NCBI RefSeq assembly: GCF_055900595.2 | Contig: NZ_CM148325.1 | DNA: 64,000 nucleotides | Strand: one strand, 5' to 3' | Shown here: piece by piece, positions 13,747-50,351 of the stretch | Numbering within the stretch: the first letter of the stretch is position 1 | Layout of the letters: each line of letters starts with the position of its first letter | Translations under genes and position numbers: made by a program | The notes under the pieces: model-generated | Databases searched by the model: none | The model's input: the letters and a program-made list of their open reading frames with translations, nothing else | Told to the model about the DNA's origin: nothing

Positions 13747-13786
13747 TCGGAACTGACAGTAGGTGAACGCATTATCTACGTTCTAT

Positions 13787-14680: not shown

Positions 14681-15865
14681 ATGAGTGAATTTATTGCCGA
14701 AAACCGCGGCGCGGATGCCATCATCCGACCGAACTGGTCCGCCGTTTTCTCGGTAGCGTTTTGCGTCGCCTGCCTGATTATCGTTGAGTTTTTGCCCGTC
14801 AGTTTGTTGACGCCAATGGCCCAGGATTTAGGTATTTCGGAAGGGGTTGCCGGGCAATCGGTGACCGTGACCGCCTTTGTGGCAATGTTTGCCAGTTTGT
14901 TTATTACCCAGACAATTCAGGCCACTGACCGCCGCTACGTTGTTATTTTGTTTGCCGTTTTGCTGACGCTCTCCTGCTTGCTGGTTTCCTTTGCCAACTC
15001 ATTCAGTTTGCTTTTAATCGGTCGTGCCTGTCTGGGGTTGGCACTCGGCGGGTTCTGGGCGATGTCGGCGTCGCTGACCATGCGTCTGGTACCAGCGCGT
15101 ACGGTGCCGAAGGCGCTGTCGGTGATTTTCGGCGCGGTTTCTATTGCGCTGGTGATAGCCGCGCCGTTGGGTAGCTTTTTAGGTGAGCTTATCGGTTGGC
15201 GCAATGTCTTTAATGCGGCGGCGGTGATGGGCGTGCTGTGTATTATCTGGATTATCAAATCATTGCCTTCGCTGCCTGGCGAACCCTCGCATCAGAAGCA
15301 AAATACTTTCCGCTTATTACAGCGTCCGGGCGTGATGGCCGGGATGATCGCCATCTTCATGTCTTTCGCCGGGCAGTTTGCTTTCTTCACGTATATTCGT
15401 CCAGTGTATATGAATCTCGCAGGATTCGGCGTGGATGGCTTAACGCTGGTGCTGTTGAGTTTTGGTATCGCCAGCTTTATCGGCACGTCGCTTTCGTCGT
15501 TCATTCTTAAACATTCGGTAAAACTGGCCTTAGCAGGTGCGCCGTTAATACTGGCTCTGAGTGCGTTGGTGCTGACGTTGTGGGGAAGCGATAAAATCGT
15601 GGCGACCGGCGTTGCGATTATCTGGGGGCTGACTTTTGCTTTAATTCCCGTTGGCTGGTCAACGTGGATCACTCGCTCACTGGCCGATCAGGCAGAAAAG
15701 GCTGGGTCTATTCAGGTGGCCGTTATTCAGCTTGCCAATACCTGCGGTGCGGCAATCGGCGGTTATGCGTTGGATAACATTGGTCTGACTTCGCCGCTGA
15801 TGTTGTCCGGCACATTGATGTTGCTTACCGCGCTGTTAGTCACCGCAAAGGTGAAAATGAAGTAA
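14681..15865 (+). CDS. nepI: MFS purine ribonucleoside efflux pump NepI, about 394 aa
   Basis: 12-TMS MFS translation; start chosen at [10 protein letters not shown]. Confidence 0.85.
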
Positions 15866-16066
15866 CGTATTTACAGGAGGGGTTACTGCTGTGGTGGGAA
15901 CACTCTCCTGTTCTTCCCCTGATAACCATTGATCAGGCATTGTTCTTATCTTGTTGTTATTTCCATTCTTCCGCCTGTATTCATCATTTGCTAATCATGA
16001 ATCATCATTTTCCCTCATGTTAAAGAAAGGTCATTTAATCTGAACGCATAGCGGCAGGGATGACAA

Positions 16067-19000
16067 ATGACAGGGAAAGCGCATGGGAACGGTAATCGTT
16101 GGGGCGATAACAGCGTATGTGGATTGGGGGATCGTTTACGTCGTCTGACCGCCGGTCTTTGCCTGATAACGCAAACTATTTTCCCTGTTATAGCTGCTGC
16201 TCCTACGCATGTTAACCCTGCGCATTCGGATACTGCCGCGTCACTGATCCTGTCGAACGTTAAAACTATTCCATACACCTTGGGGGCGTTGGAATCGCCA
16301 CCAACGGTCGCGGCACGCTTTGGTATTACCGTTGATGAATTACGTCGCCTGAATCAGTTCCGTACATTTGCGCGGGGCTTTGACAATGTGCGTCAGGGCG
16401 ATGAGATAGATGTACCACTCATCAACAGTAACAGCCCTGAAGCGCGCACTCTGAAAGCAATGCAGATGGAGCGCGACGGTAAAGATCCACAAATGCAGGT
16501 CGCGGAAGTGGCGCAACAAAGTGGGACACTTTTAGCGCGCGATATGGACAGCGAACAGGCTGCGAGTATGGCGCGTGGCTGGGTGGCTTCTTCTGTGTCT
16601 GCGCAGGCGACAGACTGGCTCAGCCGCTGGGGAACTGCCCGGGTATCTCTGGGTGTTGATGAAGATTTCAGCCTTAAAAGCTCTTCATTTGAATTTCTCC
16701 ATCCCTGGTACGAAACGCCAGATAACCTGGTCTTCAGCCAGCATGCACTCCACCGTACGGATGATCGCACTCAAACGAACCACGGTATCGGCTGGCGTTA
16801 TTTCACATCGAGCTGGATGTCGGGCATAAACCTGTTTATCGATCATGACCTGAGCCGCTATCACACCCGAACCGGGATGGGCGTTGAATACTGGCGCGAT
16901 TACCTGAAACTGAGCGGCAACGGTTATCTGCGCCTCAGTAACTGGCGTAGTGCACCGGAACTCGACAATGACTATGAAGCACGTCCGGCGAACGGGTGGG
17001 ATCTTCGCGCCGAAGGCTGGTTACCGGCCTGGCCGCAGCTGGGCGGCAAGTTGGTCTATGAACAATATTATGGCGATGAAGTGGCGCTGTTTGGTAAAGA
17101 CGAGCGACAAAATGATCCTCACGCGATTACCGCAGGTTTGAGTTACACCCCCGTTCCCCTGATCTCCTTTAGTGCCGAGCAACGGCAGGGCAAACAGGGA
17201 GAAAACGACACCCGAATTGGTATGGAGTTGACGTTGCAACCCGGTCATTCACTGCAAAAACAGCTCGATCCGGCTGAAGTTGCAGCACGACGCAGCCTTG
17301 CGGGCAGTCGCTATGACCTGGTCGATCGTAATAACAATATTGTCCTCGAATATCGCAAGAAAGAGCTGGTGCGGTTGACGCTGACCGATCCGCTGAAAGG
17401 CAAGCCGGGGGAGGTTAAATCGCTGGTTTCTTCCTTACAAACCAAATACGCGCTGAAAGGTTATGACATCGAAGCCGCTTCCTTGCAATCTGCGGGCGGG
17501 AAAGTTGCTGTTTCCGGCAAGGATATTCAGGTCACTATTCCACCCTACCGATTTACGGTAATGCCTGAAACCGACAACACTTACCCAATAACAGTTATAG
17601 CGGAAGATTCGAAAGGGAATTTCTCCCGGCGTGAAGAAAGTATGGTGGTTGTAGAAAAACCCACACTAAGCCTCGCTGATTCAACGCTTTCTGTCGATCT
17701 ACAAATTCTGCTTGCGGATGGAAAATCAATCTCAACGCTGACCTATACCGCGCGAGATTCCAGCGGCAAGCCTATCCCGGGTATGACATTAAAAACCCAT
17801 GCGAAAGGTTTGCAAGATTTCGCCCTAAGCGAATGGAAAGACAACGGTAACGGAACCTATACCCAGTTAGTTACCTCCGGGAAGACGTCAGGCGCGTTGT
17901 CGCTGATGCCACAATTTAACGGCGACGATGTTGCTAAAACACCAGCGCTGATTGCCATTGTGGCTAATATGGCATCCCGAGCGGACTCCATGATTGAAAC
18001 AGACCAGAATAATTACGTCGCGGGTAAGCCGATAGGCGTAAAAGTGACCCTGAAAGATGAGAATGGCAACGGGGTTACCGGAAGAAAAGAACTTCTTAAA
18101 CAGGCTGTTAAAGTAGACAACACGAAGACTGATGCTGTTAGTGCCTGGACGGAAGAAAGTGAGGGAGTTTACAAAGCAAACTATACGGCCCATCTCATTG
18201 GCGACAAATTAACGGCCCAGCTGACGATGCCCGGCTGGCAAACCAAGCATTCGGATGCGTTCAGTATTGCGGGTGATAAAGATACCGCCAAAATCGCTGC
18301 GATGCAGATCACCGCGAATAACGCAGTCGCCAGACGCGATCACAATACCGTCGCTGTGACGGTCAGGGACGTGCATCAAAATTTACTGCAGGGACAAAAT
18401 GTTACCTTCACGGTCGTGAATGGTGCGGCGGTTTTTGCCGATCCAAATGGCGGTATTGTGACGACAGATAAAGACGGGATTGCCAGCGTTAACCTTGCCA
18501 GTGACCAGGCGGTAAACAGTCTTATCAAGGCCGAGATCAATGGCAGTAGTCAGTCTGTGGAAGTGAGCTTTATCACTGGCGATATCTCGCAGCTAACCTC
18601 CACCATCAAGACGGACGATGTGTCATACACCGCGGGTGGCAAGATAAAAGTGACAGTCACCCTTATGGATGAGCAGAAAAACCGGGTGACAGGGATGGCT
18701 TCGCTGCTGGCAGGTAGCGGCGTGGTCGAGGTGAGCGGTACAGATACAAATGAAACGGGTAACTGGAGCGAAGAGTCTGATGGCGTTTACACCACCACCC
18801 GAACCGCGAAGATTGCTGGCAATAGCCATTACGCCACGCTGAAACTATCGACATGGAGTAGCGTGCAGCAATCCGATGCGTATGTCATCCGCGAAAGCGG
18901 AGCTGTGCTGGCTTATTCCTCTATCGTTACCGACAAAACGACCTATACCGCAGGCGGTGCGATTAAAGTTACGGTAACGCTCAAGGATAGCTATGAAAAC

Positions 19001-22000
19001 CTGGTCGGGGGGCAACGAGACGCTATCAGCCAGGCTATCCAGCTGCCAAATACAAAAGCGGAAAGCATTACCTGGAATGAAGATCAAAAAGGCATTTATA
19101 CCGCAACGTATACCGCTTTACTTCCTGGCACCGGTTTAAAAGCACAGCTACAGATGTCCGGCTGGGCGAGCGCCCTGACTTCAAATGTTTACAGTATTAG
19201 TGGCGATGCCGCCAGCGCACAAATCGTCGCGATGCAAGTGACAACGGGTAGCCTGGATGTGCTGGCCAATGGTAGCGATCAACATACGGTGAATGTTCGG
19301 GTGGAAGATCAGTTTGGCAATGTGCTGCCAGAGCAGACCGTCACCTTTACGGTGACGAAGGGGGCGGCTGTATTTGCCAATGCAGGGCAGAGTGCAGACA
19401 TCAGGACGGATGTGCATGGCATGGCAGAGGTTGATCTGAGCAGTACCGTAGCGGATGCCAGCACTGTTGAGGCTAAGGTCAATCAAAGCAGCGATAGTAA
19501 AACGGTGAACTTCGTTGCTGATGTCAGCACGGCGCGTATTGCTGATCTGGGGGTAACGCAGGATAACGCGGTGGCAGACGGCGCGACAGAGAACATGCTG
19601 TGGGTGAAAGTCACCGACGCGTTTGGCAATGCGCTGGGCGGACAGACGGTCAGCGTCTCAGCGGACAACGGGACAGCGGTTGCCGCGACGGTTATCACCG
19701 GGCCGGACGGCACGGCGATAATCACCGTCACCAGCCAGATCGCCGGAGCCAGTACGGTCACTGCCAGCATCAACAACAGCAGTCTGAGTCAGAATGTGAC
19801 ATTTATCCCCGATATCAGCACCGCGAAGATCGCGGATCTGGTGGTCATTAAGGACGGCTCAGTGGCAGACGGTTCGACGGCGAACACGCTGCGGGTGAAA
19901 GTCACCGACGCGTTCGGCAATGCGCTGGCCGGACAGACGGTCAGCGTCTCAGCGGACAACGGGGCAGCGGTTGCCGCGACGGTTATCACCGGGCCGGACG
20001 GCACTGTGGAAACCTCCGTCACCAGCCAGACGGCGGGCATCAGTACGGTCACTGCCAGCATCAACAACAGCAGTCTGAGTCAGAATGTGACATTTATCCC
20101 GGATGTCAGCACCGCGAAGATCGCGGATCTGGTGGTCATTAAGGACGGCTCAGTGGCAGACGGTTCGACGGCGAACACGCTGCGGGTGAAAGTCACCGAC
20201 GCGTTCGGCAATGCGCTGGCCGGACAGACGGTCAGCGTCTCAGCGGACAACGGGGCAGCGGTTGCCGCGACGGTTATCACCGGGCCGGACGGCACCGTGG
20301 AAATCTCCGTCACCAGCCAGACGGCGGGCATCAGTACAGTTACCGCAACCATCAACAACAGCACTCTGAGCCAGAACGTGACGTTTATTGCTGATGTCAG
20401 CACGGCGAAGATCGCGGTGCTGGAAGTGACGCAGGATTACGCCGTGGCAGATGGTTCGACGGCGAACACGCTGCGGGCGAGGGTGACCGATGCGTTCGGT
20501 AATACGCTTGCCGGGCAGACGGTCAGCGTGTTGGCGGATAACGGCGCAACGGTCGCTCCGACTGTCATCACAGGGCAGGACGGCACGGTGGAAATCAGTG
20601 TCACCAGCCAGACGGCGGGCAGCAGTGCGGTCACCGCCAGTATCAACAGCAGCAGTCAGAGCCGGGACGTGACGTTTATCGCGGATGTCAGGACGGCGAA
20701 GATCGCTGATCTGGTGGTCACCCGGGATAACTCAGTGGCTGACGGCGCAATGGCGAACACGCTGCGGGTGAGGGTGACGGATGCGTTCGGTAATGTGCTT
20801 GCCGGGCAGACGGTCAGCGTGTTGGCAGGCAACGGTGCCACGACTGCTCCGACGGTCACCACGCAGCCGGACGGCACGGCGGAGATCTCTGTCACCAGCC
20901 AGACCGCCGGAATCAGTGCGGTCACTGCCAGCATTAACAGCAGCAGCCAGAGCCGGAACGTCACGTTTATCGCCGATGTCAGGACGGCGCAGATCGCGAG
21001 TCTGGAGGTGACGCAGGATAACGCCGTGGCTGACGGCGCAATGGCGAACACGCTGCGGGTGAGGGTGACGGATGCGTTCGGTAATGTGCTTGCCGGGCAG
21101 ACGGTCAGCGTGACGGCAGACAACAGCGCAACGGTCACTCCGACGGTCACCACACAGCCGGACGGCACGGCGGAGATCTCTGTCACCAGCCAGACCGCCG
21201 GAACCAGTGTGATCACCGCCAGCGTCAACAACAGCAGCCAGAGCCGGAACGTGACGTTTATTGCGGATGTCAGCACGGCGCAGATCGCGGATCTGGTGGT
21301 CACCCGGGATAACGCGGTGGCAGACGGCGCGACGGCGAACACGCTGCAGGTGAAGGTGACCGATGCGTTCGGGAATGCGCTGGGCGGACAGACGGTCAGC
21401 GTGACGGCAGGCAACGGCGCAACGGTTGCTCCGACGGTGATTACAGAGCCGGACGGCACGGTGGAGATCAGTGTCACCAGTCAGACGGCGGGAGCCAGTA
21501 CTGTCACTGCCAGCATCAACAGCAGCAGCCTGAGCCGGAACGTGACGTTTGTCGCGGATGTCAGGACGGTGAAGATAGCGGATCTGGTCGTTAGCCAGGA
21601 TAACGCGGTGGCAGACGGCGCGACGGCGAACACGCTGCAGGTGAAGGTGACCGATGCGTTCGGGAATGCGCTGGGCGGACAGACGGTCAGCGTGACGGCA
21701 GGCAACGGCGCAACGGTTGCTCCGACGGTGATTACAGAGCCGGACGGCACGGTGGAGATCAGTGTCACCAGTCAGACGGCGGGAGCCAGTACTGTCACTG
21801 TCAGCATCAACAGCAGTACCGCGAGCCGGAACGTCACGTTTATCGCCGATGTCAGCACGGCGCAGATCGCGAGTCTGGAGGTGACGCAGGATAACTCAGT
21901 GGCTGACGGCGCAATGGCGAACACGCTGCGGGTGAAGGTCACCGATGCTAACGGGAATGCACTTGCCGGGCAGACGGTCAGCGTCTCAGCGGACAACGGG

Positions 22001-39041: not shown

Positions 39042-41360
39042 ATGAAAATTAGCGACGGAAACTGGTTGATTCAACCTGGCCTCAATTTGATTCACCCGCT
39101 TCAGGTGTTCGAGGTTGAACAGCAGGGTAATGAAATGGTGGTCTATGCTGCCCCCCGTGATGTGCGTGAACGTACCTGGCAGCTTGATACGCCTTTATTT
39201 ACGCTGCGCTTTTTCTCCCCACAGGAAGGTATTGTCGGTGTACGGATTGAGCATTTTCAGGGGGCGCTGAATAACGGTCCTCATTACCCGCTCAATATTT
39301 TGCAGGACGTGAAGGTCACAATCGAAAACACAGAACGTTACGCTGAGTTTAAAAGTGGCAACTTAAGTGCGCGTGTCAGCAAAGGTGAGTTCTGGTCACT
39401 GGATTTTCTGCGCAACGGCGAACGTATTACCGGTAGTCAGGTGAAAAATAATGGCTACGTGCAGGACACGAATAATCAACGAAATTATATGTTTGAGCGG
39501 CTGGATCTTGGCGTTGGCGAAACAGTTTACGGTCTGGGAGAGCGCTTTACGGCCCTGGTGCGCAATGGCCAGACGGTAGAGACCTGGAACCGGGACGGCG
39601 GCACAAGTACTGAACAGGCGTATAAAAATATCCCGTTCTATATGACTAACCGTGGTTATGGTGTACTGGTCAATCATCCCCAATGCGTCTCTTTTGAAGT
39701 GGGATCGGAGAAAGTCTCCAAAGTGCAGTTCAGCGTTGAGAGTGAATATCTCGAATACTTTGTTATCGACGGCCCGACGCCGAAAGCGGTACTTGATCGT
39801 TATACCCGTTTTACTGGTCGTCCGGCGCTGCCGCCCGCGTGGTCCTTCGGCCTGTGGCTAACCACTTCATTTACCACCAACTACGACGAAGCGACGGTAA
39901 ACAGCTTTATCGATGGTATGGCGGAACGCAATCTGCCGCTGCATGTTTTCCACTTTGACTGTTTCTGGATGAAAGCCTTCCAGTGGTGCGATTTTGAGTG
40001 GGACCCGCTGACTTTCCCGGACCCGGAAGGGATGATCCGCCGCCTGAAAGCGAAAGGGCTAAAAATCTGCGTCTGGATTAACCCCTATATCGGGCAAAAA
40101 TCCCCTGTCTTTAAAGAGTTACAAGAGAAAGGTTATTTACTCAAACGCCCGGACGGTTCGCTGTGGCAGTGGGATAAATGGCAGCCAGGTCTGGCGATTT
40201 ATGACTTTACCAATCCGGATGCCTGCAAATGGTACGCCGACAAACTGAAAGGTCTGGTCGCGATGGGCGTTGATTGCTTTAAGACCGACTTTGGCGAACG
40301 TATTCCAACCGATGTTCAATGGTTTGACGGTTCCGATCCGCAGAAAATGCATAACCATTATGCGTACATCTACAACGAACTGGTGTGGAACGTGCTCAAG
40401 GAAACCGTTGGCGAGGAAGAAGCCGTCTTGTTTGCCCGCTCGGCCTCCGTCGGTGCGCAGAAATTCCCGGTACATTGGGGTGGCGACTGTTACGCTAACT
40501 ACGAATCAATGGCGGAAAGCCTGCGCGGTGGTTTGTCTATTGGCCTTTCTGGTTTTGGCTTCTGGAGCCACGATATCGGCGGCTTTGAGAATACCGCTCC
40601 GGCGCACGTTTACAAACGCTGGTGCGCGTTTGGTTTGCTCTCCAGCCATAGCCGTTTACACGGCAGCAAATCTTATCGTGTGCCGTGGGCCTATGATGAT
40701 GAGTCCTGTGATGTGGTGCGCTTCTTCACGCAACTGAAATGCCGCATGATGCCGTATCTGTATCGTGAGGCTGCTCGTGCGAACGCGCGGGGTACGCCGA
40801 TGATGCGGGCCATGATGATGGAGTTTCCGGACGATCCGGCTTGTGATTACCTTGACCGTCAATACATGTTAGGCGACAACGTGATGGTTGCTCCAGTGTT
40901 CACTGAATCGGGCGATGTGCAGTTCTACTTGCCGGAAGGTCGCTGGACACACCTGTGGCACAACGATGAACTCGATGGTAGTCGCTGGCATAAACAGCAG
41001 CACGGCTTCCTGAGTCTGCCCGTTTATGTGCGTGATAACACCCTACTGGCGCTGGGCAACAACGAGCAACGTCCCGATTACGCGTGGCACGAAGGCACGG
41101 CATTCCAGCTCTTTAATCTGCAAGACGGGCATGAAGCCATCTGTGAAGTGCCCGCTGCCGATGGTTCCGTTCTTTTCACCCTGAAAGCGGCGCGTACTGG
41201 CAACACAATTACTGTGAATGGTGCGGGCGTGGCGAAGAACTGGACGCTGTGCTTGCGCAATGTTGTGAAAGTAAATGGTCTGCAAGGCGGTTCGCAGGCT
41301 GAAAGTGAGCAGGGGCTGGTGGTGACGCCTCAAGGGAATGCGCTGACAATTACGTTGTAA
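39042..41360 (+). CDS. yicI: Alpha-xylosidase (GH31), 772 aa
   Basis: 772-aa glycoside hydrolase translation with GH31 catalytic-region motifs (WINPYI..., KTDFGE). Confidence 0.9.
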
Positions 41361-41371
41361 TCTATTGAAGA

Positions 41372-41405
41372 ATGCCGGATACGAATGGTTTTGTGTCGTA
41401 TCCGG
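41372..41405 (+). terminator. Hairpin downstream of yicI (CCGGATACGA...TCGTATCCGG)
   Basis: Inverted repeat 12 nt after the yicI stop; the T-run is weak. Confidence 0.4.
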
Positions 41406-41654
41406 TAAATAATCTCACATCTGGTAATAAATATTTCTTCCATCGTATTTGCGAGCATGATCACGATTATTCATCGCGAAAATGTGATCTGTGCTGAAAA
41501 ATATCCCTTAACCGCCTTGCTTTGTTTTATCACTGTCCGGATTACGGACAGATTTTAGTATTGTTGTGAAATTATTCTGCTTTATATTTACCCTCAGAGA
41601 TGGCAACTGAAGCTCTTCCTCATGGGGCTTCTTAATCTGTGATAAGGGTAAAAA

Positions 41655-43208
41655 ATGCAAATGATTACCTCGCGACAAAACAGATTATTACGATTCCTTC
41701 TACCACGAAGGGAATATACGACTATTGTTACGATTGCCGGCTATTTAAATGTTTCGGAAAAAACCATTCAACGTGATTTACGTTTACTTGAGCAATGGCT
41801 GGGGCAATGGAGAATAAATGTTGAGAAGCGTGCTGGCGCGGGTGTGATGTTAAGCGCGGAGAATATTGCTGATTTGCTGCATCTTGATCATTTGTTGGTG
41901 GCAGAATGTGAAGAGATTGATGGTGTAATGAATAATGCCAGGCGCGTTAAAATAGCGTCGCAGTTATTAAGTGAAACACCGAATGAAACGTCGATCAGTA
42001 AATTGTCAGAACGCTACTTTATCAGCGGAGCCTCTATTGTTAATGACCTGAGAGTAATTGAGTCCTGGCTTGCGCCGTTGGGGTTATCGTTGATCCGCAG
42101 CCCAAGTGGTACGCATATTGAAGGTAGTGAAGGGCAAGTCCGACAGGCAATGGCATTACTGATTAACGGCATTATTAACCATAATGAGCCGCAAGGTGTC
42201 GTGTATTCACGTCTGGATCCCGGAAGCTATAAAGCATTAGTCCATTATTTTGGAGAGGAAGAAGTGTTATTTGTCCAGTCATTGTTACTGGATATGGAAA
42301 ATGAATTAAGTTGGTCTTTGGGAGAACCTTATTACGTTAACATTTTTACTCACATCCTTATTATGATGTATCGCAACACGCACGGGAATGCGTTATCAAG
42401 AGAAGAAGATCAAACCAGGCAATATGATGAAAATATCTTTAATGTTGCCAGTCAGATGATTCATAAGATAGAACAACGAATTGCACATACATTGCCCGAT
42501 GATGAAGTCTGGTTTATTTATCAATATATCATTTCATCAGGTGTGGCGATTGATGGACAAAAAGATGTTAGCATTATTTCACATATGCAGGCCAGCAATG
42601 AAGCGCGTCTGATTACCTGGCGTTTAATTACGGTATTCAGTGACATCGTGGACTGCGATTTTAGTGAAGACAGCGCATTATATGATGGCTTGTTGGTTCA
42701 TATTAAGCCGCTGATTAACCGTTTAAATTATCGCATTCATATCCGTAATCCATTGCTGGAAGATATTAAAGCAGAATTAGCGGATGTCTGGCGGTTGACG
42801 CAATATGTGGTGAATCAGGTATTTAAAACCTGGGGTGAGAATGCAGTGAGCGAGGATGAAGTGGGTTACCTGACCGTTCATTTTCAGGCTGCGATGGAGC
42901 GGCAAATTGCCCGTAAACGTGTATTACTGGTCTGTTCAACCGGAATCGGAACTTCGCATCTACTGAAAAGCCGTATTCTGCGAGCATTTCCTGAATGGAC
43001 GATTGTTGATGTTATTTCAGCAGCGAATTTATCACAGGTTTTGCCTGACAATATCGAACTGATTATTTCGACCATTAATTTGCCTACAGTCACTATGCCG
43101 GTCGCTTATGTTACCGCTTTTTTTAATGATGCCGATATTAAGCGGGTCACTGAAATGGTGATTACGGAAAAATTACATCATGCGACGTCTCGGGTCGTTG
43201 AAATTTAA
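41655..43208 (+). CDS. PRD-containing transcriptional regulator (MtlR/LicR-like; HTH, PRD and PTS EIIB-like domains), 517 aa
   Basis: N-terminal HTH (TIAGYLNVSEKTIQRDLRLL) and C-terminal PTS-IIB-like segment (VLLVCSTGIGTSHLL); precedes PTS genes. Confidence 0.7.
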   Translation: MQMITSRQNRLLRFLLPRREYTTIVTIAGYLNVSEKTIQRDLRLLEQWLGQWRINVEKRAGAGVMLSAENIADLLHLDHLLVAECEEIDGVMNNARRVKIASQLLSETPNETSISKLSERYFISGASIVNDLRVIESWLAPLGLSLIRSPSGTHIEGSEGQVRQAMALLINGIINHNEPQGVVYSRLDPGSYKALVHYFGEEEVLFVQSLLLDMENELSWSLGEPYYVNIFTHILIMMYRNTHGNALSREEDQTRQYDENIFNVASQMIHKIEQRIAHTLPDDEVWFIYQYIISSGVAIDGQKDVSIISHMQASNEARLITWRLITVFSDIVDCDFSEDSALYDGLLVHIKPLINRLNYRIHIRNPLLEDIKAELADVWRLTQYVVNQVFKTWGENAVSEDEVGYLTVHFQAAMERQIARKRVLLVCSTGIGTSHLLKSRILRAFPEWTIVDVISAANLSQVLPDNIELIISTINLPTVTMPVAYVTAFFNDADIKRVTEMVITEKLHHATSRVVEI

Positions 43209-43234
43209 TGTCAGAATTTTATGAGGTATGACGA

Positions 43235-43705
43235 ATGGACATAACAAAAATCCTGAATACGAATCGCGTTATTTTAGATATGCAAGCGACGAATAAAGCG
43301 GAGGCGATTGAAGAATTAACTAATCTTCTCAAAAAAGATGGTGCGATCGATTGTCGGGAAACCTTTATTAAAGATGTCTGGCAGCGCGAAGCGGAAGGCT
43401 CGACTGGTTTTGAAAATCATATTGCGATCCCGCATGGTAAATCTTCAGCTGTGATTAATACTACGCTGGCAATTGGCCGTACCCGGCAGGATATTCCCTG
43501 GGAAACGCTGGATGGCAGTAGCGTGCGCTGTATTATTTTATTTGCGGTACGTCTTGAAGATCAAAATACCACCCATATCCGTTTACTTTCCCAGGTCGCG
43601 GGCGCGCTGGCGGATGATGACATCATAGAACAATTGTTAGTTGAGACGAGTCCGCAAAAAATCATTGATCTCTTTAGTCAGTATGCACAATCCGATGTCT
43701 GCTAA
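43235..43705 (+). CDS. PTS EIIA component, fructose/mannitol family, 156 aa
   Basis: EIIA-2-type translation with candidate phospho-His (IAIPHGK). Confidence 0.75.
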   Translation: MDITKILNTNRVILDMQATNKAEAIEELTNLLKKDGAIDCRETFIKDVWQREAEGSTGFENHIAIPHGKSSAVINTTLAIGRTRQDIPWETLDGSSVRCIILFAVRLEDQNTTHIRLLSQVAGALADDDIIEQLLVETSPQKIIDLFSQYAQSDVC

Positions 43706-43722
43706 ATAACAGGGAGTATGTC

Positions 43723-44037
43723 ATGAATATTGTCTGTGTTGCCGCCTGTACGGCGGGTATTGCTCATACCTATATTGCTCGTGAAAAGTTAATCAAAGGA
43801 GCAAAAGCTCTGGGCCATACCATTAAAGTTGAAACCCAGGGAACCATTGGTACAGAAAATGAATTACAGGCGGCAGATATCTCTGCTGCTGACGTCGTGA
43901 TTCTTGCTGTAGATGTGAAAATAAAAGGAGAAGAACGCTTCACCAATAAACGTATTGTGCGAGTAAAGACAGAGATTGTCATTAAATCGCCCGTTCAATT
44001 TCTTGAAAAGGTCGAAAAATCACTGGGAAACAAATGA
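43723..44037 (+). CDS. PTS EIIB component, fructose family, 104 aa
   Basis: N-terminal VCVAACTAGIAHTY active-site Cys motif. Confidence 0.75.
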   Translation: MNIVCVAACTAGIAHTYIAREKLIKGAKALGHTIKVETQGTIGTENELQAADISAADVVILAVDVKIKGEERFTNKRIVRVKTEIVIKSPVQFLEKVEKSLGNK

Positions 44038-44061
44038 TCCTTATACTGGAGGGATCTTAAT

Positions 44062-45153
44062 ATGAAAGACAATAAAATTCCGGTTTCACAGGAAATTAAA
44101 AAACATTTATTAACCGGCATCTCGTGGATGATACCCCTTATTGTGGCCGCCGGGATATGTATTGCGTTGGGGCAAGTTCTTGGCGGTACAGATGTTGGTG
44201 AAAAAACAGGAACAATCCCGTGGATGCTTAATCAGATTGGCGGCTGGGGAATGGGGCTGATTGTGCCGCTGATTAGCGCGGCAATTGCCTATTCTATTGC
44301 CGATCGTCCTGGATTTGCCCCGGGCCTGATTGTCGGCTTTCTCTGCGGGCAAATCCATACCGGATTTATTGGCGGTATGTTGGGTGGTTTCCTGGTGGGC
44401 TACACCATTTTGCTACTTAAACGCTATATCCGCCTGCCGCAGTCGATGCAAGGACTCATGCCAATCATGGTGTTGCCGGTATTAAGCACCATTATCGGTG
44501 GGCTGTTAATGATGACGCTGATTGGTAAACCCATCGCCTGGTTACAAGAAGCACTGATTCATTTGCTCGAGTCGATGCAGGGCGGATCGCGCTTCCTGAT
44601 GGGGGCCATACTTGGCGCGATGGCAACCTTCGATTTCGGTGGTCCGGTAAATAAAACAATGTCGTTGTTTTCCGATGGCTTGCTGGTCAGCGGCGTCTAT
44701 GGGCCAGAAGCCGTGAAATTTGTCGGCTCAATCATCCCTCCGTTTGGCATCACACTTTCGTTCTTACTGACACGCCATAAATACACCCGTGCGGAGCGCG
44801 AGGCGCTGAAAGCCGCGTTTCCGATGGGGATCTGCATGATCACTGAAGGAGTCATTCCAATCGCCGCGCGTGACTTGCTGCGAGTGGTGGGATCTTGTGT
44901 GGTGGCTTCTGCGGTAGCTGGCGGCTTGATCATGGTGTGGGGCGTGGAGAGTCCGGTTCCGCATGGCGGCCTGTTTGTTGTGCCTTTGTTCACCCATCCT
45001 CTGCTGTTTTGCCTGGCGCTGGGTATAGGCACGGTGATTTGTGGCGTGATGCTTTCACTCTGGAAGAAACCGGTAACGGAACGTGACGAAGAGTTTGACG
45101 AACTGAGCGATCAAAAGCTGAAAGATGAAGAGATCACTTTCACCCTCGAATAA
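44062..45153 (+). CDS. PTS EIIC component, fructose-like, 363 aa
   Basis: Multi-pass membrane protein directly after EIIA and EIIB. Confidence 0.75.
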   Translation: MKDNKIPVSQEIKKHLLTGISWMIPLIVAAGICIALGQVLGGTDVGEKTGTIPWMLNQIGGWGMGLIVPLISAAIAYSIADRPGFAPGLIVGFLCGQIHTGFIGGMLGGFLVGYTILLLKRYIRLPQSMQGLMPIMVLPVLSTIIGGLLMMTLIGKPIAWLQEALIHLLESMQGGSRFLMGAILGAMATFDFGGPVNKTMSLFSDGLLVSGVYGPEAVKFVGSIIPPFGITLSFLLTRHKYTRAEREALKAAFPMGICMITEGVIPIAARDLLRVVGSCVVASAVAGGLIMVWGVESPVPHGGLFVVPLFTHPLLFCLALGIGTVICGVMLSLWKKPVTERDEEFDELSDQKLKDEEITFTLE

Positions 45154-45164
45154 CCGGAGGCCCT

Positions 45165-46016
45165 ATGTTTGCCGATATGAAAAGTATGGTGATGAAAGCC
45201 TGGCATGAACATTACGCCTTGCTGGCGATCAACTGTATGAATCTGGAAAGTGCTCACGCAGCTATCCGCGTGGCGGAGAAGAATCGCGCTCCGATCATTC
45301 TCAATCTCTATCAGGGGCATCTGGCGCATTTTCCTGCACCCGTCGCGGCGGCAGTGGTTAAAACGCTCGCGGAATCTGCCTCAGTACCGGTCGCTCTGGC
45401 GCTTGATCATGGCAAAAATCCGGACTGTATTCGTCAGGCGTTTCGTGCTGGTTTCAGCGGATTAATGATTGATGCTTCTGCTTTTCCCCTGGAGGAAAAC
45501 GTGCGCCAGACCAGGGCGGTGGTGGAACTCGCCGCCGGCGCGCAGCTCTGCGTGGAAGGCGAACTGGGCCATCTGGCAGATGCGCCGCGTTACGACCAGG
45601 CCACCAATGCCGACCTGATGACGCAACCCACTGATGTGGAAACGTTTATCGCGCAGACAGGCATTGATCTACTGGCCGTCTCGGTAGGCACGGCGCACGG
45701 CATGTACGCGCCTGGTGTTGTACCTGCTATTGATTTTCAGCGTCTGGCGGAGATTTTCCACTGCTCGAGCGTGCCTCTGGCATTACATGGCGGTAGCGGT
45801 ACGCCGTTCGATCAGCTCCAGCTCTGTACGACGCTGGGGGTAGCAAAAATCAACGTGGGGGCGGCCATTTTTGAACGGGGGAAATCCGCGCTCCTGCATA
45901 CCCTCTGTCACGATATATCCATTGAACTGGTGGACGCGCTGAAAGCTATGGAACTGGCCTTCGAAGAAGCGGTTACACCGTATTTACAGGCGAGCGGCTC
46001 TATCGGCAAAGCCTGA
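45165..46016 (+). CDS. Class II ketose-bisphosphate aldolase family protein, 283 aa
   Basis: Class II FBP/tagatose-bisphosphate aldolase fold (ALDHG, LHGGSG motifs). Confidence 0.7.
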   Translation: MFADMKSMVMKAWHEHYALLAINCMNLESAHAAIRVAEKNRAPIILNLYQGHLAHFPAPVAAAVVKTLAESASVPVALALDHGKNPDCIRQAFRAGFSGLMIDASAFPLEENVRQTRAVVELAAGAQLCVEGELGHLADAPRYDQATNADLMTQPTDVETFIAQTGIDLLAVSVGTAHGMYAPGVVPAIDFQRLAEIFHCSSVPLALHGGSGTPFDQLQLCTTLGVAKINVGAAIFERGKSALLHTLCHDISIELVDALKAMELAFEEAVTPYLQASGSIGKA

Positions 46017-46096
46017 TTCATTTTCTGTCATGGCCTTTATGCCAGTGCAATAACGCACCGGCAGGGCGGACTACACGCTGAAACTGGAGATTTAAC

Positions 46097-46957
46097 ATGT
46101 TAGTTTCGATGAAAGAATTACTGCAACCTACCCGCCAGCACGGCTTTGCCATTGGCGCATTTAATGTGGCGGATAACTGTTTCCTTCGCGCAGTCGTGGA
46201 TGAAGCAGAAGCGACAAATACTCCGGCGATTATTGCTATCCATCCCAGCGAACATGATTTTGTGGGCGATGCCTTTTTCGCTCACGTTCGCGAAATCACG
46301 CAGCGTAGTCCGGTGCCGTTTGTGCTGCACCTCGATCATGGCGCCTCTGTGGAGCACGTTTTGCGGGCGATTCGCTGTGGATTTACCTCGGTGATGATCG
46401 ACGGTTCGCTGCTGCCGTATGAAGAGAACGTGGCGCTGACCGCAGAAGTGGTTCGCCTGGCTCATGCGGTTGGCGTGTCGGTTGAGGGTGAGCTGGGGAC
46501 CATCGGACAAACAGGAACGTCAGTGGAAGGTGGAGTTTCACAAGTGACCTACACTGACCCGGCGCAAGCCGCCGATTTTATTGCTCGTACAGGGGCCGAC
46601 ACACTGGCGGTAGCGATTGGTACGGCACACGGCATCTATCCGAAAGGGATGCAGCCGAAGCTGCAAATGGACATTTTGCGCGACATTGCCGGGCGCATTG
46701 ATATTCCATTGGTGTTGCACGGTGGTTCGGCAAACCCGGACGCGGAGATTGCTGAATCCGTTACGCTCGGCGTTGGCAAAATCAATATCTCCAGCGATAT
46801 GAAATACGCCTATTTCCAGAAAGTGCGTGAAATTCTCGCTAAAGAGAGCTGGTGGGACCCGAACGTCATCTATCCGGATGCGATTAGCGCGGCGCGGGAA
46901 GTCATTCGCCACAAAATGAAACTGTTCGGTTCGCTCGGTAAAGCATCACTGTACTAA
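46097..46957 (+). CDS. Class II ketose-bisphosphate aldolase family protein, second copy, 286 aa
   Basis: Paralogous class II aldolase (LDHGAS, LVLHGGS motifs). Confidence 0.7.
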   Translation: MLVSMKELLQPTRQHGFAIGAFNVADNCFLRAVVDEAEATNTPAIIAIHPSEHDFVGDAFFAHVREITQRSPVPFVLHLDHGASVEHVLRAIRCGFTSVMIDGSLLPYEENVALTAEVVRLAHAVGVSVEGELGTIGQTGTSVEGGVSQVTYTDPAQAADFIARTGADTLAVAIGTAHGIYPKGMQPKLQMDILRDIAGRIDIPLVLHGGSANPDAEIAESVTLGVGKINISSDMKYAYFQKVREILAKESWWDPNVIYPDAISAAREVIRHKMKLFGSLGKASLY

Positions 46958-47004
46958 GCCAGAAGGGCGGGGTGACCCGCCTTTTACGCAACAAGGAACG
47001 AGAT

Positions 47005-47937
47005 ATGCACTATCTGGGGTTGGATATTGGTGGGACCAAAATCGCCGCCGTCGTCATGGATGCGCATGGCTGGGAGATTCGCCGTTACCGCTGCCCGACG
47101 CAAAAGTCGACATATCAACAATTTGTCTCATGCGTTGTGGCGCTTATCGAGCAGATTAGGCGGGACGTTCAACGACCGATGCTGACAGGGATCGCCTTAC
47201 CCGGCAGTATCTCGCCACTCACTGGCCTGATTAAAAATGCGAATATTCAGGTGATTAACGGTCATGCGTTACAGGCTGATTTGCAGCAATTGCTTGGGCA
47301 ACCGGTGGTGATAGCCAATGATGGTAACTGTTTCGCGCTATCAGAAGCTTGCGACGGTGCCGGGCAAGATTATGATGTGGTATTTGGTATTACGCTTGGC
47401 ACTGGCTGCGGCGGTGGCATTGCCATCAAGCAACGACCGTTTATAGGGGCCTGGGGAAATGCTGCCGAATGCGGTCATATCACGTTGCCAGGCTATACGG
47501 AGCAGGAAGATGGTCCATCAGTCAGTTGCTATTGCGGCAAACACAACTGCGTGGAGTCGTTTGTTTCCGGCAGCGGTTTTAGTGAACGCTATCAACAGAT
47601 GACTGGTAACTTGCTCATTCCTGCGGCGATTGTCACCCTGGCACAACGTGGTGATGCTTGTGCCATGCAGCAGGTGGCACGTTTTCGCCAACAGCTTGCC
47701 CGCACGCTGGCAACCATCGTTAACGTTGTTGACCCTGGCGTGATTGTGATCGGCGGCGGGCTTTCGAATGTGGAACTGCTTATCACCGATCTGAACGCAG
47801 AAGTCGCTCCACTGGTTTTCACCGATCAATTCACCACTCCCATTGTAAAAGCGCAGCACGGCGACAGTAGCGGAATGCGTGGCGCTGCCTGGCTTGCTAT
47901 GCGCAACGGAGAAGCCAATGAAACGCTCACAAATTAA
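47005..47937 (+). CDS. ROK-family sugar kinase, about 310 aa
   Basis: N-terminal LGLDIGGTKIAAVV ATP-binding motif and Cys-rich zinc motif (CGHITLPG...CYCGKHNC); AAGGAA ribosome-binding site upstream of ATG 47005. Confidence 0.7.
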   Translation: MHYLGLDIGGTKIAAVVMDAHGWEIRRYRCPTQKSTYQQFVSCVVALIEQIRRDVQRPMLTGIALPGSISPLTGLIKNANIQVINGHALQADLQQLLGQPVVIANDGNCFALSEACDGAGQDYDVVFGITLGTGCGGGIAIKQRPFIGAWGNAAECGHITLPGYTEQEDGPSVSCYCGKHNCVESFVSGSGFSERYQQMTGNLLIPAAIVTLAQRGDACAMQQVARFRQQLARTLATIVNVVDPGVIVIGGGLSNVELLITDLNAEVAPLVFTDQFTTPIVKAQHGDSSGMRGAAWLAMRNGEANETLTN

Positions 47938-48598
47938 TTATGTTATTGATAAAGCACATGCCATTGCGCAGACCTTCCGCGTTTGTTTGCCAGAGTTCGC
48001 CTATTTTACGGTGGATGACTGGCTGCAGCGGGAACGGGATAACTGGCAAGAAGTAGTCGACTTACAGCTCGGTTGGGATATCACCGATTTTGGTCGTGGT
48101 GATTTCAACCAAACGGGACTAACACTGCTAACGATGCGCAACGGCGCGCTGGGGTCGGCGGCATATCCAAAACCGTATGCTGAGAAAATGTTGCAGATCC
48201 AACAAGATCAGCAGACTCCCTGGCATTTTCACACCCACAAAATGGAAGATATCCTCAATCGGGGCGGTGGAGACTTATGCATGCAGTTGGCCTGGGCCAA
48301 CGAAGCCAATCTCTGTGATGATCAACGAGTCATTACCGTGAGTGTTGATGGTCAGCGGCGTACCATGAAACCTGGTGAAACGCTGGTGCTAAAGCCGGGG
48401 CAGGGCATTTGCCTGCCGCCGCGTCTGTATCATCGCTTCTGGGCGGAAAAAGCGTTTGTTCTCGGCTGGGAAATTTCGATGGTAAATGATGACCAACACG
48501 ATAATTATTTTCTTGAGCCGGGAGGACGTTTTCCGGCGATAGAAGAAGATGAACCGGTGAAATGGTTATTGTGCAGTGAGTATGGAATTTTGCGCTAA
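47918..48598 (+). CDS. Cupin-type sugar isomerase (D-lyxose/D-mannose isomerase-like), about 226 aa
   Basis: Size and sequence resemble the D-lyxose isomerase family; start overlaps the kinase stop by 20 nt. Confidence 0.6.
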   Translation: MKRSQINYVIDKAHAIAQTFRVCLPEFAYFTVDDWLQRERDNWQEVVDLQLGWDITDFGRGDFNQTGLTLLTMRNGALGSAAYPKPYAEKMLQIQQDQQTPWHFHTHKMEDILNRGGGDLCMQLAWANEANLCDDQRVITVSVDGQRRTMKPGETLVLKPGQGICLPPRLYHRFWAEKAFVLGWEISMVNDDQHDNYFLEPGGRFPAIEEDEPVKWLLCSEYGILR

Positions 48599-48607
48599 TA
48601 ACGGGGA

Positions 48608-48644
48608 ACGCTAGCGCTGATATCCGCTAGCGTCCTTATTTTTA
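48608..48644. terminator. Bidirectional hairpin between the sugar operon and convergent yicH
   Basis: ACGCTAGCG-CTGATATC-CGCTAGCGT followed by a T-rich run. Confidence 0.5.
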
Positions 48645-50351
48645 CTGCACCGGCTCCGTCGACGTAACTTCACCACTGGAAACTGCGCCCGCATTCATGG
48701 TTTGAGTCACTTGCTGCTTTGTGGCATTCACGGCATGCAATTGCCCGCTAACCGTAGGTTTCAGCGGGACATTGACCTGAATATCGCCACTGGCGGTAAG
48801 CTGAATATTGCCGTCGCCAGTCAACGGTAGTTCAGGCCATCCCCACTGTTGCAAAATATTCACCGGCACACCGCGTCCATTCAGGCTGATATGGGTCTGA
48901 CGTTGTGGCGTTTGTGAAACACTGGCGGTGGCTTCCAGAATGCCTTTTTCAGTAAATGCACTCAGTTCGCTGATATTCACCGTGCTGCTGTTGGCAGTTA
49001 GCGCCAGCGACGGACGACGGACATCAACACGATTAAACGTTGCGGCGGCGGCATTCAGATTCGCCGAGCCACTCCAGACGCCCCATTTATGATCGGTAAC
49101 CAGCGTCAGATTGGCACCGTAACCATCGAGCGCGGTGAGCTGCCACGGGAAGTCAGGGTCGATATCAATGATCAGATTGCGGCTGGCGCTAAATCTCTTC
49201 AGTTGCAGGCTGTTTAACCAACCGGGTGTCGTTTCCATCCACAACTGTTGCCAGTTTTTTGGCAAGGTATATTCCAGTCCGGCAATTGCCGCATCATCAA
49301 GGATCAACATTTTCCCGTCACGCAACCAGTTCCCTGACGTTCTGACCATGCCCCCTTCCCAGCGGCTGGTGAACTGGCGCAGTGCTACGCCCTGCGGGGA
49401 AAATTCCGCGTTTATAATCGGGTCAAATAAATGCAGCGAACCATAAATGAACTCGCTGGCGTTCATCGACAGTTTGCCTTCCTGTGTCTGCCAGTCATCT
49501 TTACTGAAGGTCATGTTGCGCAAGCTGAGATCGAGGTCGGTCACCGCCCAGTCCGGACCTTGCAGACGAGCGTCAATGACTTCCAGGCGACCAATCTGCA
49601 ACGACGGGACAGAGCGTAATGGCGCAAAGAAGTCGGTTAGCGATTTTTCGCTTTGTAGACGGATATCCGCCAGCCGCAGATTTTCCACTTGCCAGCTGCC
49701 GTCGGCGTTACGCTGCGCGTTTCCGGTTAATGTCCCGCGGGCGATGTCGGCACCCAGGTTAGTCAGCGTAACGCGATCGTTATCAATACTGCCTTCAATC
49801 AGTACATTGGTGGCAGGAACATCATTGAGCGAAAGCGATCCGGCACTAAACTGAATCTGCGCCTTCGTACCCAGCACTTTACCGGCTTCTGGTGACCACG
49901 GAACCACGCCACCATTTACCCGCTGCGCGCTCAGTTTCCATTCGCTATTCGGGCTATTAAACGCCATATCACGCAGTTGCAGACGATCGGCTTTGAACGG
50001 TAGCGGCGCGGTCTGGTCGGTGAGATTCAGCGTCCCGTTTTCCAGTAGGATGGTATCGACATGGCGTGGTTCGGTCAGTTGGCGACTGCTTAGCGCAATG
50101 TCGACACTTTTTGCCACCAGGGTCGCGGGCTGACCATCACGACCAAACGTGACGTTCTCCAGCACGATATGAGATGGCGCGGAAAAACGGTGATCCATCG
50201 CCCCGAAGGCCAGATGATAGTCGCTATTCTCGGAAACCCATGCGCTGATATGTTCTGCTCCCCAGCGGGTTTGCAGAAGAAAATAGAGGCCAGCGATCAC
50301 CACTAACAGAGCGATGAGAATGTAGAGAAGCAGCTTCCCAATAAATTTCAT
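48642..50351 (-). CDS. yicH: AsmA-family protein YicH, 569 aa
   Basis: N-terminal membrane anchor plus long beta-rich periplasmic domain; start chosen at MKFIGKLLLYIL. Confidence 0.8.
   Translation of the reverse strand: MKFIGKLLLYILIALLVVIAGLYFLLQTRWGAEHISAWVSENSDYHLAFGAMDHRFSAPSHIVLENVTFGRDGQPATLVAKSVDIALSSRQLTEPRHVDTILLENGTLNLTDQTAPLPFKADRLQLRDMAFNSPNSEWKLSAQRVNGGVVPWSPEAGKVLGTKAQIQFSAGSLSLNDVPATNVLIEGSIDNDRVTLTNLGADIARGTLTGNAQRNADGSWQVENLRLADIRLQSEKSLTDFFAPLRSVPSLQIGRLEVIDARLQGPDWAVTDLDLSLRNMTFSKDDWQTQEGKLSMNASEFIYGSLHLFDPIINAEFSPQGVALRQFTSRWEGGMVRTSGNWLRDGKMLILDDAAIAGLEYTLPKNWQQLWMETTPGWLNSLQLKRFSASRNLIIDIDPDFPWQLTALDGYGANLTLVTDHKWGVWSGSANLNAAAATFNRVDVRRPSLALTANSSTVNISELSAFTEKGILEATASVSQTPQRQTHISLNGRGVPVNILQQWGWPELPLTGDGNIQLTASGDIQVNVPLKPTVSGQLHAVNATKQQVTQTMNAGAVSSGEVTSTEPVQ

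What the first reader, a model, noticed from the sequence alone, without database searches (positions are those of the whole stretch)
41406..48644. Accessory PTS and ketose catabolism operon inserted between yicI and yicH
Eight co-directional genes (PRD regulator, fructose-family EIIA, EIIB and EIIC, two class II aldolases, a ROK kinase and a cupin D-lyxose/mannose-type isomerase) lie between yicI and yicH, which I recall as adjacent in K-12. The combination of an isomerase, a kinase and two aldolases suggests catabolism of a rare ketose or pentose whose substrate cannot be named from sequence. The isomerase start overlaps the kinase stop, suggesting translational coupling.
Basis: partly seen in the sequence, partly recalled or inferred. 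Interest (0 to 1): 0.45.

Follow-up and report, generated by a model that had tools for sequence, protein, structure and literature searches.

The report
The known ExPEC frz sugar operon
This eight-gene sugar-uptake and sugar-splitting cluster between yicI and yicH is real, but it is the frz operon published in 2009, carried by about 30% of E. coli genomes, and the sugar it acts on is still unknown.

Summary
Eight intact, co-directional genes fill the 7.28-kb gap between yicI and yicH: a PRD/Mga regulator, fructose-family EIIA, EIIB and EIIC, two class II aldolases, a ROK kinase and a cupin D-lyxose/D-mannose-type isomerase. In K-12 that gap is 52 bp.

The cluster is not new. It is the frz operon of extraintestinal pathogenic E. 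coli (Rouquet 2009). The BEN2908 genome paper places frz at yicH..yicI, and the published frz PCR primers match the window exactly, giving the published 843-bp amplicon.

The locus has two states in E. coli: 1601 of 5426 complete genomes carry frz and 3818 have the empty junction.

"Inserted" is doubtful. Klebsiella aerogenes has the same eight genes at the same site, and frz divergence tracks that of the flanking core genes. This suggests an old resident lost from many lineages.

In the ten gene neighbourhoods read outside E. coli, the regulator, EIIABC and both aldolases are always present; the kinase and isomerase are optional.

No substrate assignment was found in the searchable literature. 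The likely mechanism is PTS uptake of a fructose-like ketose, cleavage by the aldolases, and MtlR-like PRD control. This is inferred, not shown.

The parts
41375..41405 (+). yicI terminator hairpin. It is shared with K-12 and marks the left edge of the frz-specific DNA.
   Evidence: Junction alignment with K-12 and the sequence itself.
41460..41487 (+). Conserved upstream inverted repeat IR2, TCAC[G/A]-N17-19-TGTGA. Candidate regulator or CRP half-sites; the function is inferred only.
   Evidence: Present upstream of the regulator gene in all 10 genomes checked, from Escherichia to Pantoea.
41534..41550 (+). Conserved inverted repeat IR1, TGTCC-N7/8-GGACA, with invariant arms and a variable spacer. 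It lies about 33 bp upstream of a TATATT hexamer (41583-41588). Candidate operator of the PRD activator (inferred). The simple scan also flags it as terminator-like.
   Evidence: Found in 9 of 10 genomes. The arms never vary, so there is no covariation to support an RNA hairpin.
41655..43208 (+). PRD-containing transcriptional activator (the frz regulator). Domain order is HTH_11, Mga, PRD, PRD, EIIB-like, with no EIIA-like domain. It contains the published frz PCR amplicon, 42060-42902.
   Evidence: Pfam. H233, H349, H409 and C427 are invariant in 7 orthologues. Primer matches.
43235..43705 (+). PTS EIIA, fructose/mannitol family. Carries the IAIPHG phospho-histidine motif.
   Evidence: TIGR00848, 127 bits, above its cut-off. 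Motif read from the translation.
43723..44037 (+). PTS EIIB, fructose type. Has the N-terminal CTAGIAHT cysteine motif.
   Evidence: TIGR00829, 100 bits, above its cut-off. Motif read from the translation.
44062..45153 (+). PTS EIIC, fructose family permease.
   Evidence: TIGR01427, 312 bits, above its cut-off. It scores below every substrate-specific equivalog cut-off (FruA, FrwC-type, MngA).
45165..46016 (+). Class II (PF01116) aldolase 1. A divergent paralogue that scores below every NCBIfam equivalog or subfamily cut-off.
   Evidence: The LDHG, EGELG, GTAHG and LHGGSG motifs are conserved in 9 taxa.
46097..46957 (+). Class II aldolase 2, of the uncharacterised PRK08185 subfamily. It is 32% identical to aldolase 1.
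   Evidence: NF006042, 525 bits, above its cut-off. PDB hits. Catalytic motifs conserved.
47005..47937 (+). ROK-family sugar kinase. Its closest model is the Mak-type fructokinase/mannokinase, but it scores below that cut-off.
   Evidence: NF007108, 318 bits against a cut-off of 443. DIGGTK and CxCGxxxC motifs read from the translation.
47918..48598 (+). Cupin sugar isomerase of the D-lyxose/D-mannose family. Its start lies 20 nt inside the kinase gene.
   Evidence: E = 4e-64 to E. coli O157 Z5688 D-lyxose isomerase (3KMH/3MPB), with the HxH...E and second-His cupin metal motifs aligned. NF051472, 272 bits, below its cut-off of 350. Overlap.
48608..48643 (+). Terminator-like GC-rich hairpin followed by a T-run. 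It closes the operon and abuts the yicH stop codon.

Best explanation
This is the chromosomal frz operon of E. coli, an accessory carbohydrate module described in avian and human extraintestinal pathogenic strains.

Shown here:
- It has the gene content, position and PCR signature of frz.
- All eight genes are intact.
- The locus has two states in the species.

Inferred regulation, by analogy with MtlR/LicR-type regulators:
- The HTH-Mga-PRD-PRD-EIIB-like regulator activates a weak promoter downstream of two conserved inverted repeats.
- HPr phosphorylation of a PRD2 histidine (H349 or H409) would permit activity.
- Phosphorylation of C427 or a PRD1 histidine by the idle Frz EIIA/EIIB would switch it off.
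- The operon would therefore be induced only when its sugar drains phosphate from the Frz PTS and better PTS sugars are absent.

Inferred pathway:
- The EIIABC take up a fructose-like ketose and phosphorylate it, at C1 as the fructose family usually does.
- The sugar phosphate is brought to a ketose bisphosphate. The second kinase could be the ROK kinase or a housekeeping kinase.
- The two class II aldolases split it into dihydroxyacetone phosphate plus an aldehyde phosphate.
- The cupin isomerase and ROK kinase feed a related free aldose or ketose into the same pool.

The substrate is not fructose itself and remains unnamed. Published phenotypes of frz (fitness under oxygen limitation and in late stationary phase, more ON-oriented fim switch) are downstream consequences.
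For: Identity:
- The BEN2908 genome paper (PMC12928451) lists genomic region GR27, bounded by yicH and yicI, 7227 bp, as the frz operon. It is present in all the ExPEC and AIEC strains compared and absent from MG1655.
- The frz primers printed in PMC6238794 match at 42060 and 42902 with no mismatch, giving exactly the published 843 bp.
- 1601 of 5426 complete genomes, including Nissle 1917 and ST131, carry at least 80% of the segment at 95-100% identity. 3818 genomes have the K-12 type junction.

Components: NCBIfam, Pfam and PDB assignments.

Regulator: domain order and invariant H233, H349, H409 and C427. Promoter architecture conserved in 9-10 genomes.

Enzymes look functional:
- Both aldolases keep the Asp-His, Glu and two further His motifs in 9 taxa.
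- The cupin metal-binding motifs align with those of Z5688.

Phenotypes are as summarised in PMC8777976, PMC6238794 and PMC6727828.
Against: - No step of the pathway or of the regulation was tested here. The primary paper (Rouquet 2009, PMC2698472) is not held in the library, so I could not read it.
- The cluster has no PfkB-type 1-phosphofructokinase. ROK kinases normally phosphorylate free sugars, so the route to a bisphosphate is unproven.
- In Pantoea the module has no kinase or isomerase at all. These two genes therefore cannot be obligatory steps.
- Every substrate-specific NCBIfam model scores below its cut-off.
- A 2021 review files frz under unknown function.
Confidence: 0.85

Rival explanations
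1. Direct ketose-1-phosphate pathway. The PTS product is itself the aldolase substrate. The two aldolases, possibly as a hetero-oligomer or with complementary stereochemistry, cleave a ketose 1-phosphate into DHAP and a free aldose. Where present, the cupin isomerase and ROK kinase salvage that released aldose (aldose to ketose to sugar 6-phosphate).
For: The six genes for the regulator, EIIA, EIIB, EIIC, aldolase 1 and aldolase 2 are present in all ten gene neighbourhoods read outside E. coli. The other two genes vary:
- ROK only in Brenneria, Gibbsiella and Mangrovibacter
- cupin only in Izhakiella
- neither in Pantoea

The cluster has no PfkB kinase. YdjI, a PF01116 enzyme among the PDB hits (6OFU), acts on a ketose monophosphate according to my recollection of the literature.
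Against: Housekeeping FruK or Pfk could supply the second phosphate in every host, so the absence of a kinase gene proves little. Most characterised PF01116 enzymes use bisphosphates. No biochemical data exist.
Confidence: 0.2
2. Mainly a sensor. The Frz PTS and its regulator serve chiefly as a signalling device linking nutrient state to fim phase switching and stress fitness, with little or no net catabolic flux.
For: The reported phenotypes are fitness in late stationary phase and under oxygen restriction, and a bias of the fimS switch. They do not include growth on a sugar. No substrate is known.
Against: Five enzyme and transport genes keep their catalytic motifs and are conserved as paralogue-specific families across Enterobacterales, including plant-associated genera that lack type 1 fimbrial regulation of this kind. 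This points to selection for catalysis.
Confidence: 0.12
3. A recent horizontally acquired islet, inserted between yicI and yicH in an ancestor of pathogenic lineages.
For: - It is absent from 70% of genomes.
- The regulator, EIIA and EIIB genes are 41-44% GC, against about 52% for the flanks.
- Salmonella Ituri carries the cluster on the other side of yicI.
- In Pantoea, Brenneria and Gibbsiella it sits at unrelated sites.
Against: - K. aerogenes has the same site and order, and a further taxon shares the right junction.
- The low GC of the first three genes is also seen in K. aerogenes, so it is a property of the genes and not a scar of recent transfer.
- Divergence of frz equals that of the flanks, both between genera and within E. 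coli.
- There is no integrase, insertion sequence or direct repeat at the junctions.
Confidence: 0.25

Closest known systems
frz operon of avian ExPEC strain BEN2908 (Rouquet et al. 2009, J Bacteriol 191:4427; GR27 in PMC12928451)
   Same: Same locus (yicH..yicI), same size class (7227-7283 bp against 7281 bp here), the same eight kinds of gene, and exact primer matches with the published amplicon size.
   Different: Nothing of substance. This window carries a rarer allele: only 12 of 1607 records are at least 99% identical, and typical B2 strains are 98.3-98.7%.
E. coli O157:H7 Z5688 D-lyxose isomerase (PDB 3KMH, 3MPB)
   Same: The last gene of the cluster aligns end to end with Z5688 (E = 4e-64), and the cupin metal motifs are conserved.
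   Different: It scores below the NCBIfam equivalog cut-off (272 against 350 bits). By my recollection Z5688 lies in a different genomic context without this PTS and aldolase set, and I did not check that here. Specificity may therefore differ.
PTS-dependent D-tagatose pathway of Klebsiella oxytoca and Bacillus licheniformis (TagT/TagH, TagK, GatYZ), recalled from the literature
   Same: A fructose-family PTS delivers a ketose 1-phosphate that ends in cleavage by a class II GatY/KbaY-type aldolase. AgaY/KbaY are among the best PDB hits of both aldolases.
   Different: That pathway uses a PfkB kinase and a GatZ-type non-catalytic partner. Here there is a ROK kinase, two catalytic-looking PF01116 paralogues, an extra cupin isomerase and a PRD activator.
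Cryptic fructose-like PTS operons of K-12 (frv, frw, fry)
   Same: They have split EIIA, EIIB and EIIC proteins of the fructose family with no known substrate. These are the best EIIB and EIIC equivalog models after FruA.
   Different: All scores are below the equivalog cut-offs. Those operons lack the paired aldolases, the ROK kinase and the cupin isomerase.
MtlR/LicR/Mga-class PRD transcriptional activators
   Same: HTH, Mga, PRD1, PRD2 and EIIB(Gat)-like domains, with an invariant PRD2 histidine and an EIIB-like cysteine in an LVCSTGIGTS motif.
   Different: It lacks the C-terminal EIIA(Mtl)-like domain. RefSeq labels it a 'BglG family antiterminator', but it has no CAT RNA-binding domain.

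Membership tests
frz operon (E. coli ExPEC) | Located between yicH and yicI, about 7.2 kb, absent from K-12 | tested here: met
frz operon (E. coli ExPEC) | Gene set: Mga-type PTS activator, three fructose-subfamily PTS subunits, two class II ketose-bisphosphate aldolases, a ROK kinase and a cupin protein. The list is recalled from the 2009 abstract, because the paper is not held. | tested here: met
   The gene list itself rests on memory, plus the 'carbohydrate metabolic operon' wording.
frz operon (E. coli ExPEC) | Amplified by the published frz marker primers, giving 843 bp | tested here: met
   Exact matches at 42060 (+) and 42902 (-), which is 843 bp
frz operon (E. coli ExPEC) | Transcribed as one operon; deletion lowers fitness and type 1 fimbriation | not testable with these tools
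   Reported in the literature. Here there are only short gaps or overlaps between genes and a single terminator-like site at the end.
PTS fructose family (EIIA/EIIB/EIIC Fru) | Scores above the family-level model cut-offs; phospho-His and phospho-Cys motifs present | tested here: met
   TIGR00848, TIGR00829 and TIGR01427 all above cut-off. IAIPHG and CTAGIAHT motifs.
PTS fructose family (EIIA/EIIB/EIIC Fru) | Equivalog of a transporter with a known substrate (FruA, MngA, Frv/Frw) | tested here: not met
   All equivalog scores are far below their cut-offs
Class II ketose-bisphosphate aldolase (PF01116) | Zn-binding histidines and catalytic Asp and Glu motifs | tested here: met
   LDHG, EGELG, GTAHG and LHGGS are conserved in both paralogues in 9 taxa and align to AgaY D82/H83
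Class II ketose-bisphosphate aldolase (PF01116) | Equivalog of FbaA, GatY or KbaY | tested here: not met
   Below all equivalog cut-offs. Aldolase 2 belongs to the uncharacterised PRK08185 subfamily.
D-lyxose/D-mannose isomerase (cupin, PF07385) | Full-length similarity to a characterised member and conserved metal ligands | tested here: met
D-lyxose/D-mannose isomerase (cupin, PF07385) | Reaches the NCBIfam equivalog cut-off, which would imply the same specificity | tested here: not met
   272 bits against a cut-off of 350
MtlR/LicR-type PRD activator | DNA-binding HTH/Mga N-terminus, two PRDs and an EIIB-like domain with conserved His and Cys | tested here: met
MtlR/LicR-type PRD activator | C-terminal EIIA-like domain | tested here: not met
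   No PTS_EIIA_2 hit. The protein ends after the EIIB-like domain.
BglG/LicT antiterminator (the RefSeq label) | N-terminal CAT RNA-binding domain and a RAT/terminator leader | tested here: not met
   There is no CAT domain. GlcT and LicT models match only the PRD region and fall far below their cut-offs. The conserved upstream palindrome has invariant arms and shows no covariation.

The most novel reading that the evidence does not exclude
The ancestral unit is a six-gene module, found throughout Enterobacterales: PRD activator, EIIA, EIIB, EIIC and two always-paired class II aldolase paralogues. This module would define an undescribed PTS route in which a ketose 1-phosphate is cleaved directly by a dual or heteromeric PF01116 aldolase. 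The substrate might be a plant- or host-derived rare or higher-carbon ketose. The ROK kinase and cupin isomerase of Escherichia, Klebsiella and Salmonella would be later add-ons that salvage the released aldose. Naming that sugar would explain why frz improves ExPEC fitness.
Probability: 0.15. Interest if true: 0.6.

Novelty: already known. Interest (0 to 1): 0.22.

Why it matters
frz is widely used as an ExPEC/APEC virulence-associated marker, and published work links it to gut and serum fitness and to type 1 fimbrial phase switching. Its substrate has nevertheless not been reported in the literature I could search. The finding itself adds nothing new.

Two side results from this check could help anyone looking for the substrate:
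- The cluster looks like an old, frequently lost resident of the yicI-yicH site rather than a recent islet.
- Only the PTS, the regulator and the aldolase pair are universally conserved.

These results narrow the biochemical hypotheses and point to plant-associated relatives as comparators.

Tried and rejected
- **Primary papers not readable.** I tried Rouquet 2009 and Reperant 2011 by PMC id, DOI and PubMed id. Neither is held, so operon details rest on secondary papers and on my memory of the abstract.
- **No substrate in the literature.** Eight full-text searches for a substrate assignment (frz, FrzR, yicI/yicH with PTS, lyxose isomerase with ROK and aldolase) found none.
- **Antitermination rejected.** I considered a BglG-type antitermination mechanism because of the RefSeq label and a terminator-like hairpin at 41533-41551. 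The protein has HTH/Mga domains and no CAT domain. The palindrome arms are invariant with a variable spacer, which looks like a DNA operator rather than a covarying RNA stem.
- **CRP site not claimed.** I looked for a canonical CRP site (TGTGA-N6-TCACA) upstream and found none in any of ten taxa. The TCACG...TGTGA pair has the two halves in the opposite order to a CRP site.
- **A correction.** I first assumed the window came from strain Z0117EC0005, which is 100% identical over frz. It does not. That genome has an integrase island at selC and an inverted setC-yicS block that the window lacks.
- **Not attempted.**
  - Phylogroup assignment of the 1601 carriers: the tools give no per-genome typing.
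  - Structure prediction: it would not have identified the substrate.

Full report
**1. The observation**

The ORF list shows eight + strand reading frames with short gaps or overlaps between yicI (39042-41360) and the convergent yicH (48642-50351). A RefSeq genome that is 100% identical over the 7281-bp interval annotates the same eight genes.

- The first protein has HTH_11, Mga, two PRD domains and a PTS_IIB-like domain.
- The next three reach the family-level cut-offs for fructose-type EIIA, EIIB and EIIC.
- Two proteins are PF01116 class II aldolases. Aldolase 2 belongs to the uncharacterised PRK08185 subfamily, and aldolase 1 scores below every curated cut-off.
- The seventh is a ROK kinase nearest to Mak-type fructokinase.
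- The eighth aligns end to end with the O157 Z5688 D-lyxose isomerase, 3KMH (E = 4e-64).

The isomerase ATG at 47918, preceded by GGAGAA, lies 20 nt upstream of the kinase stop codon. In K-12 MG1655, yicH and yicI are separated by 52 bp.

**2. What it is**

It is the frz operon.
- The 2026 BEN2908 genome paper lists genomic region GR27, bounded by yicH and yicI, with a 7227-bp feature called the frz operon. It is present in all the ExPEC and AIEC strains compared and absent from MG1655, and the paper cites Rouquet et al. 2009.
- The frz marker primers printed in PMC6238794 match the window without mismatch at 42060 (+) and 42902 (-), inside the regulator gene. The product would be 843 bp, exactly the published amplicon size.
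- Secondary sources summarise the published phenotypes. The genes are transcribed as one operon. They promote survival in late stationary phase under oxygen restriction and growth in serum and gut. They also favour the ON orientation of the fim switch.
- A 2021 review still lists frz among genes of unknown or unclear function. Eight full-text searches found no substrate assignment.
- The primary paper is not in the library.

**3. Distribution in E. coli**

Of 5426 complete E. coli genomes, 1601 carry at least 80% of the segment at 95-100% identity. These include Nissle 1917 and ST131 strains. A further 3818 have an uninterrupted K-12 type junction. Together that is 5419 genomes, so the site has essentially two states. 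The allele in the window is uncommon: 12 records are at least 99% identical, and most are about 98.6% or 97.6%.

**4. Insertion or loss?**

Several results argue against a recent insertion.
- Klebsiella aerogenes has yicJ-yicI, the same eight genes in the same order, three extra genes (RpiR, GH4, EIICB), then yicH-xanP.
- A taxon of unknown identity has the eight genes followed by yicH-xanP-recG.
- Mangrovibacter has the cluster one gene away from yicI.
- Salmonella Ituri has it upstream of yicI.
- Between E. coli and K. aerogenes, Frz proteins are 65-94% identical and the flanking YicJ, YicI and YicH proteins are 86, 88 and 71%.
- The low GC content of the regulator, EIIA and EIIB genes (41-44%) recurs in K. 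aerogenes (44-47%, against about 60% in its flanks). It is therefore a property of the genes and not a sign of recent arrival.
- Within E. coli, frz genes are 95-99.7% identical and flanking core genes 96-98% between this window and Nissle or KOr021.
- No integrase, insertion sequence or target duplication is seen at the junctions.

I therefore regard 'accessory' as shown and 'inserted' as unproven. Old residence with repeated loss is at least as likely.

**5. Conserved core**

In all ten gene neighbourhoods read outside E. coli, the regulator, EIIA, EIIB, EIIC, aldolase 1 and aldolase 2 are present in that order. The last two genes vary:
- ROK kinase and cupin isomerase both present: Klebsiella, Salmonella and the unknown taxon.
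- Kinase only: Brenneria, Gibbsiella and Mangrovibacter.
- Isomerase only: Izhakiella.
- Neither: Pantoea-type loci.

The two aldolases are 32% identical to each other. Each keeps paralogue-specific signatures and the Asp-His, Glu and His motifs of class II aldolases in nine taxa.

The region upstream of the regulator gene keeps the same layout in 9-10 of 10 genomes: an inverted repeat TCAC[G/A]-N17-19-TGTGA, then TGTCC-N7/8-GGACA about 70 bp further downstream, then in most a TATATT hexamer.

**6. How it probably works (inferred)**

The regulator has the MtlR/LicR layout without the terminal EIIA-like domain. H233, H349, H409 and C427 are invariant.

By analogy with B. subtilis MtlR, recalled from the literature, HPr-dependent phosphorylation in PRD2 would license the activator. 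Phosphorylation of the EIIB-like cysteine or of PRD1 by the idle Frz PTS would silence it. The result would be substrate induction together with catabolite control.

The transporter should deliver a ketose 1-phosphate, and the aldolases should yield DHAP plus a second triose or aldose fragment. Neither aldolase nor the transporter reaches any substrate-specific model cut-off, so fructose itself is unlikely to be the substrate.

The route to a bisphosphate is the weakest step. There is no PfkB kinase, and the ROK kinase is dispensable in some genera. This keeps open a rival in which a ketose 1-phosphate is cleaved directly and the kinase and isomerase salvage the released aldose. I give that rival about 0.2. 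A purely sensory role gets about 0.12, because catalytic motifs are conserved across genera.

**7. Verdict**

The finding is a correct reading of a known, named and widely surveyed operon. Novelty: already known. Interest is low. The residual interest lies in the still unidentified substrate and in the conserved core and evolutionary picture described above.

Noticed in passing
window 16067-32779: A 16.7-kb block lies between nepI and yicS that K-12 lacks. It holds a 3225-aa inverse autotransporter adhesin (IatC model, with many repeats of about 291 bp), a HilA/EilA-family regulator, SipD/IpaD-like and SipB-like type III translocator homologues, and a SicA-type chaperone. It looks like the known eilA/air/eip island near selC (that name is from memory).
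   Followed up: partly
window 37263-37357 (tRNA-Sec) compared with NZ_CP098223.1 (L003): In the window, selC has no integrated island: setC follows directly, as in K-12. The complete genome closest over frz, dog strain Z0117EC0005, has an integrase island at selC and the setC-yicS block in inverted order between two copies of the same IS3 transposase. The window therefore comes from a different strain with the same frz allele.
   Followed up: partly
window 46097-46957: The aldolase 2 gene is only 95.2-95.7% identical to the Nissle and KOr021 alleles, while its neighbours are mostly 98-99.7%. This may be a recombination patch within the operon.
   Followed up: no
L004 13503-17671 (Klebsiella aerogenes): K. 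aerogenes carries an extra RpiR-type regulator, a GH4 glycosidase and a glucose-family EIICB between the frz isomerase gene and yicH. The yicI-yicH interval therefore collects sugar modules in more than one genus.
   Followed up: no
search result (E. coli genomes): One of the 1611 matching places lies on a plasmid record, and one genome has two places. Neither was inspected.
   Followed up: no
L008 (Brenneria) 4673-17753: In Brenneria the seven-gene frz-like module sits inside a nif (nitrogenase) gene cluster, between the nifEN-like and nifHDK-like genes. This is an odd place for a sugar operon.
   Followed up: no
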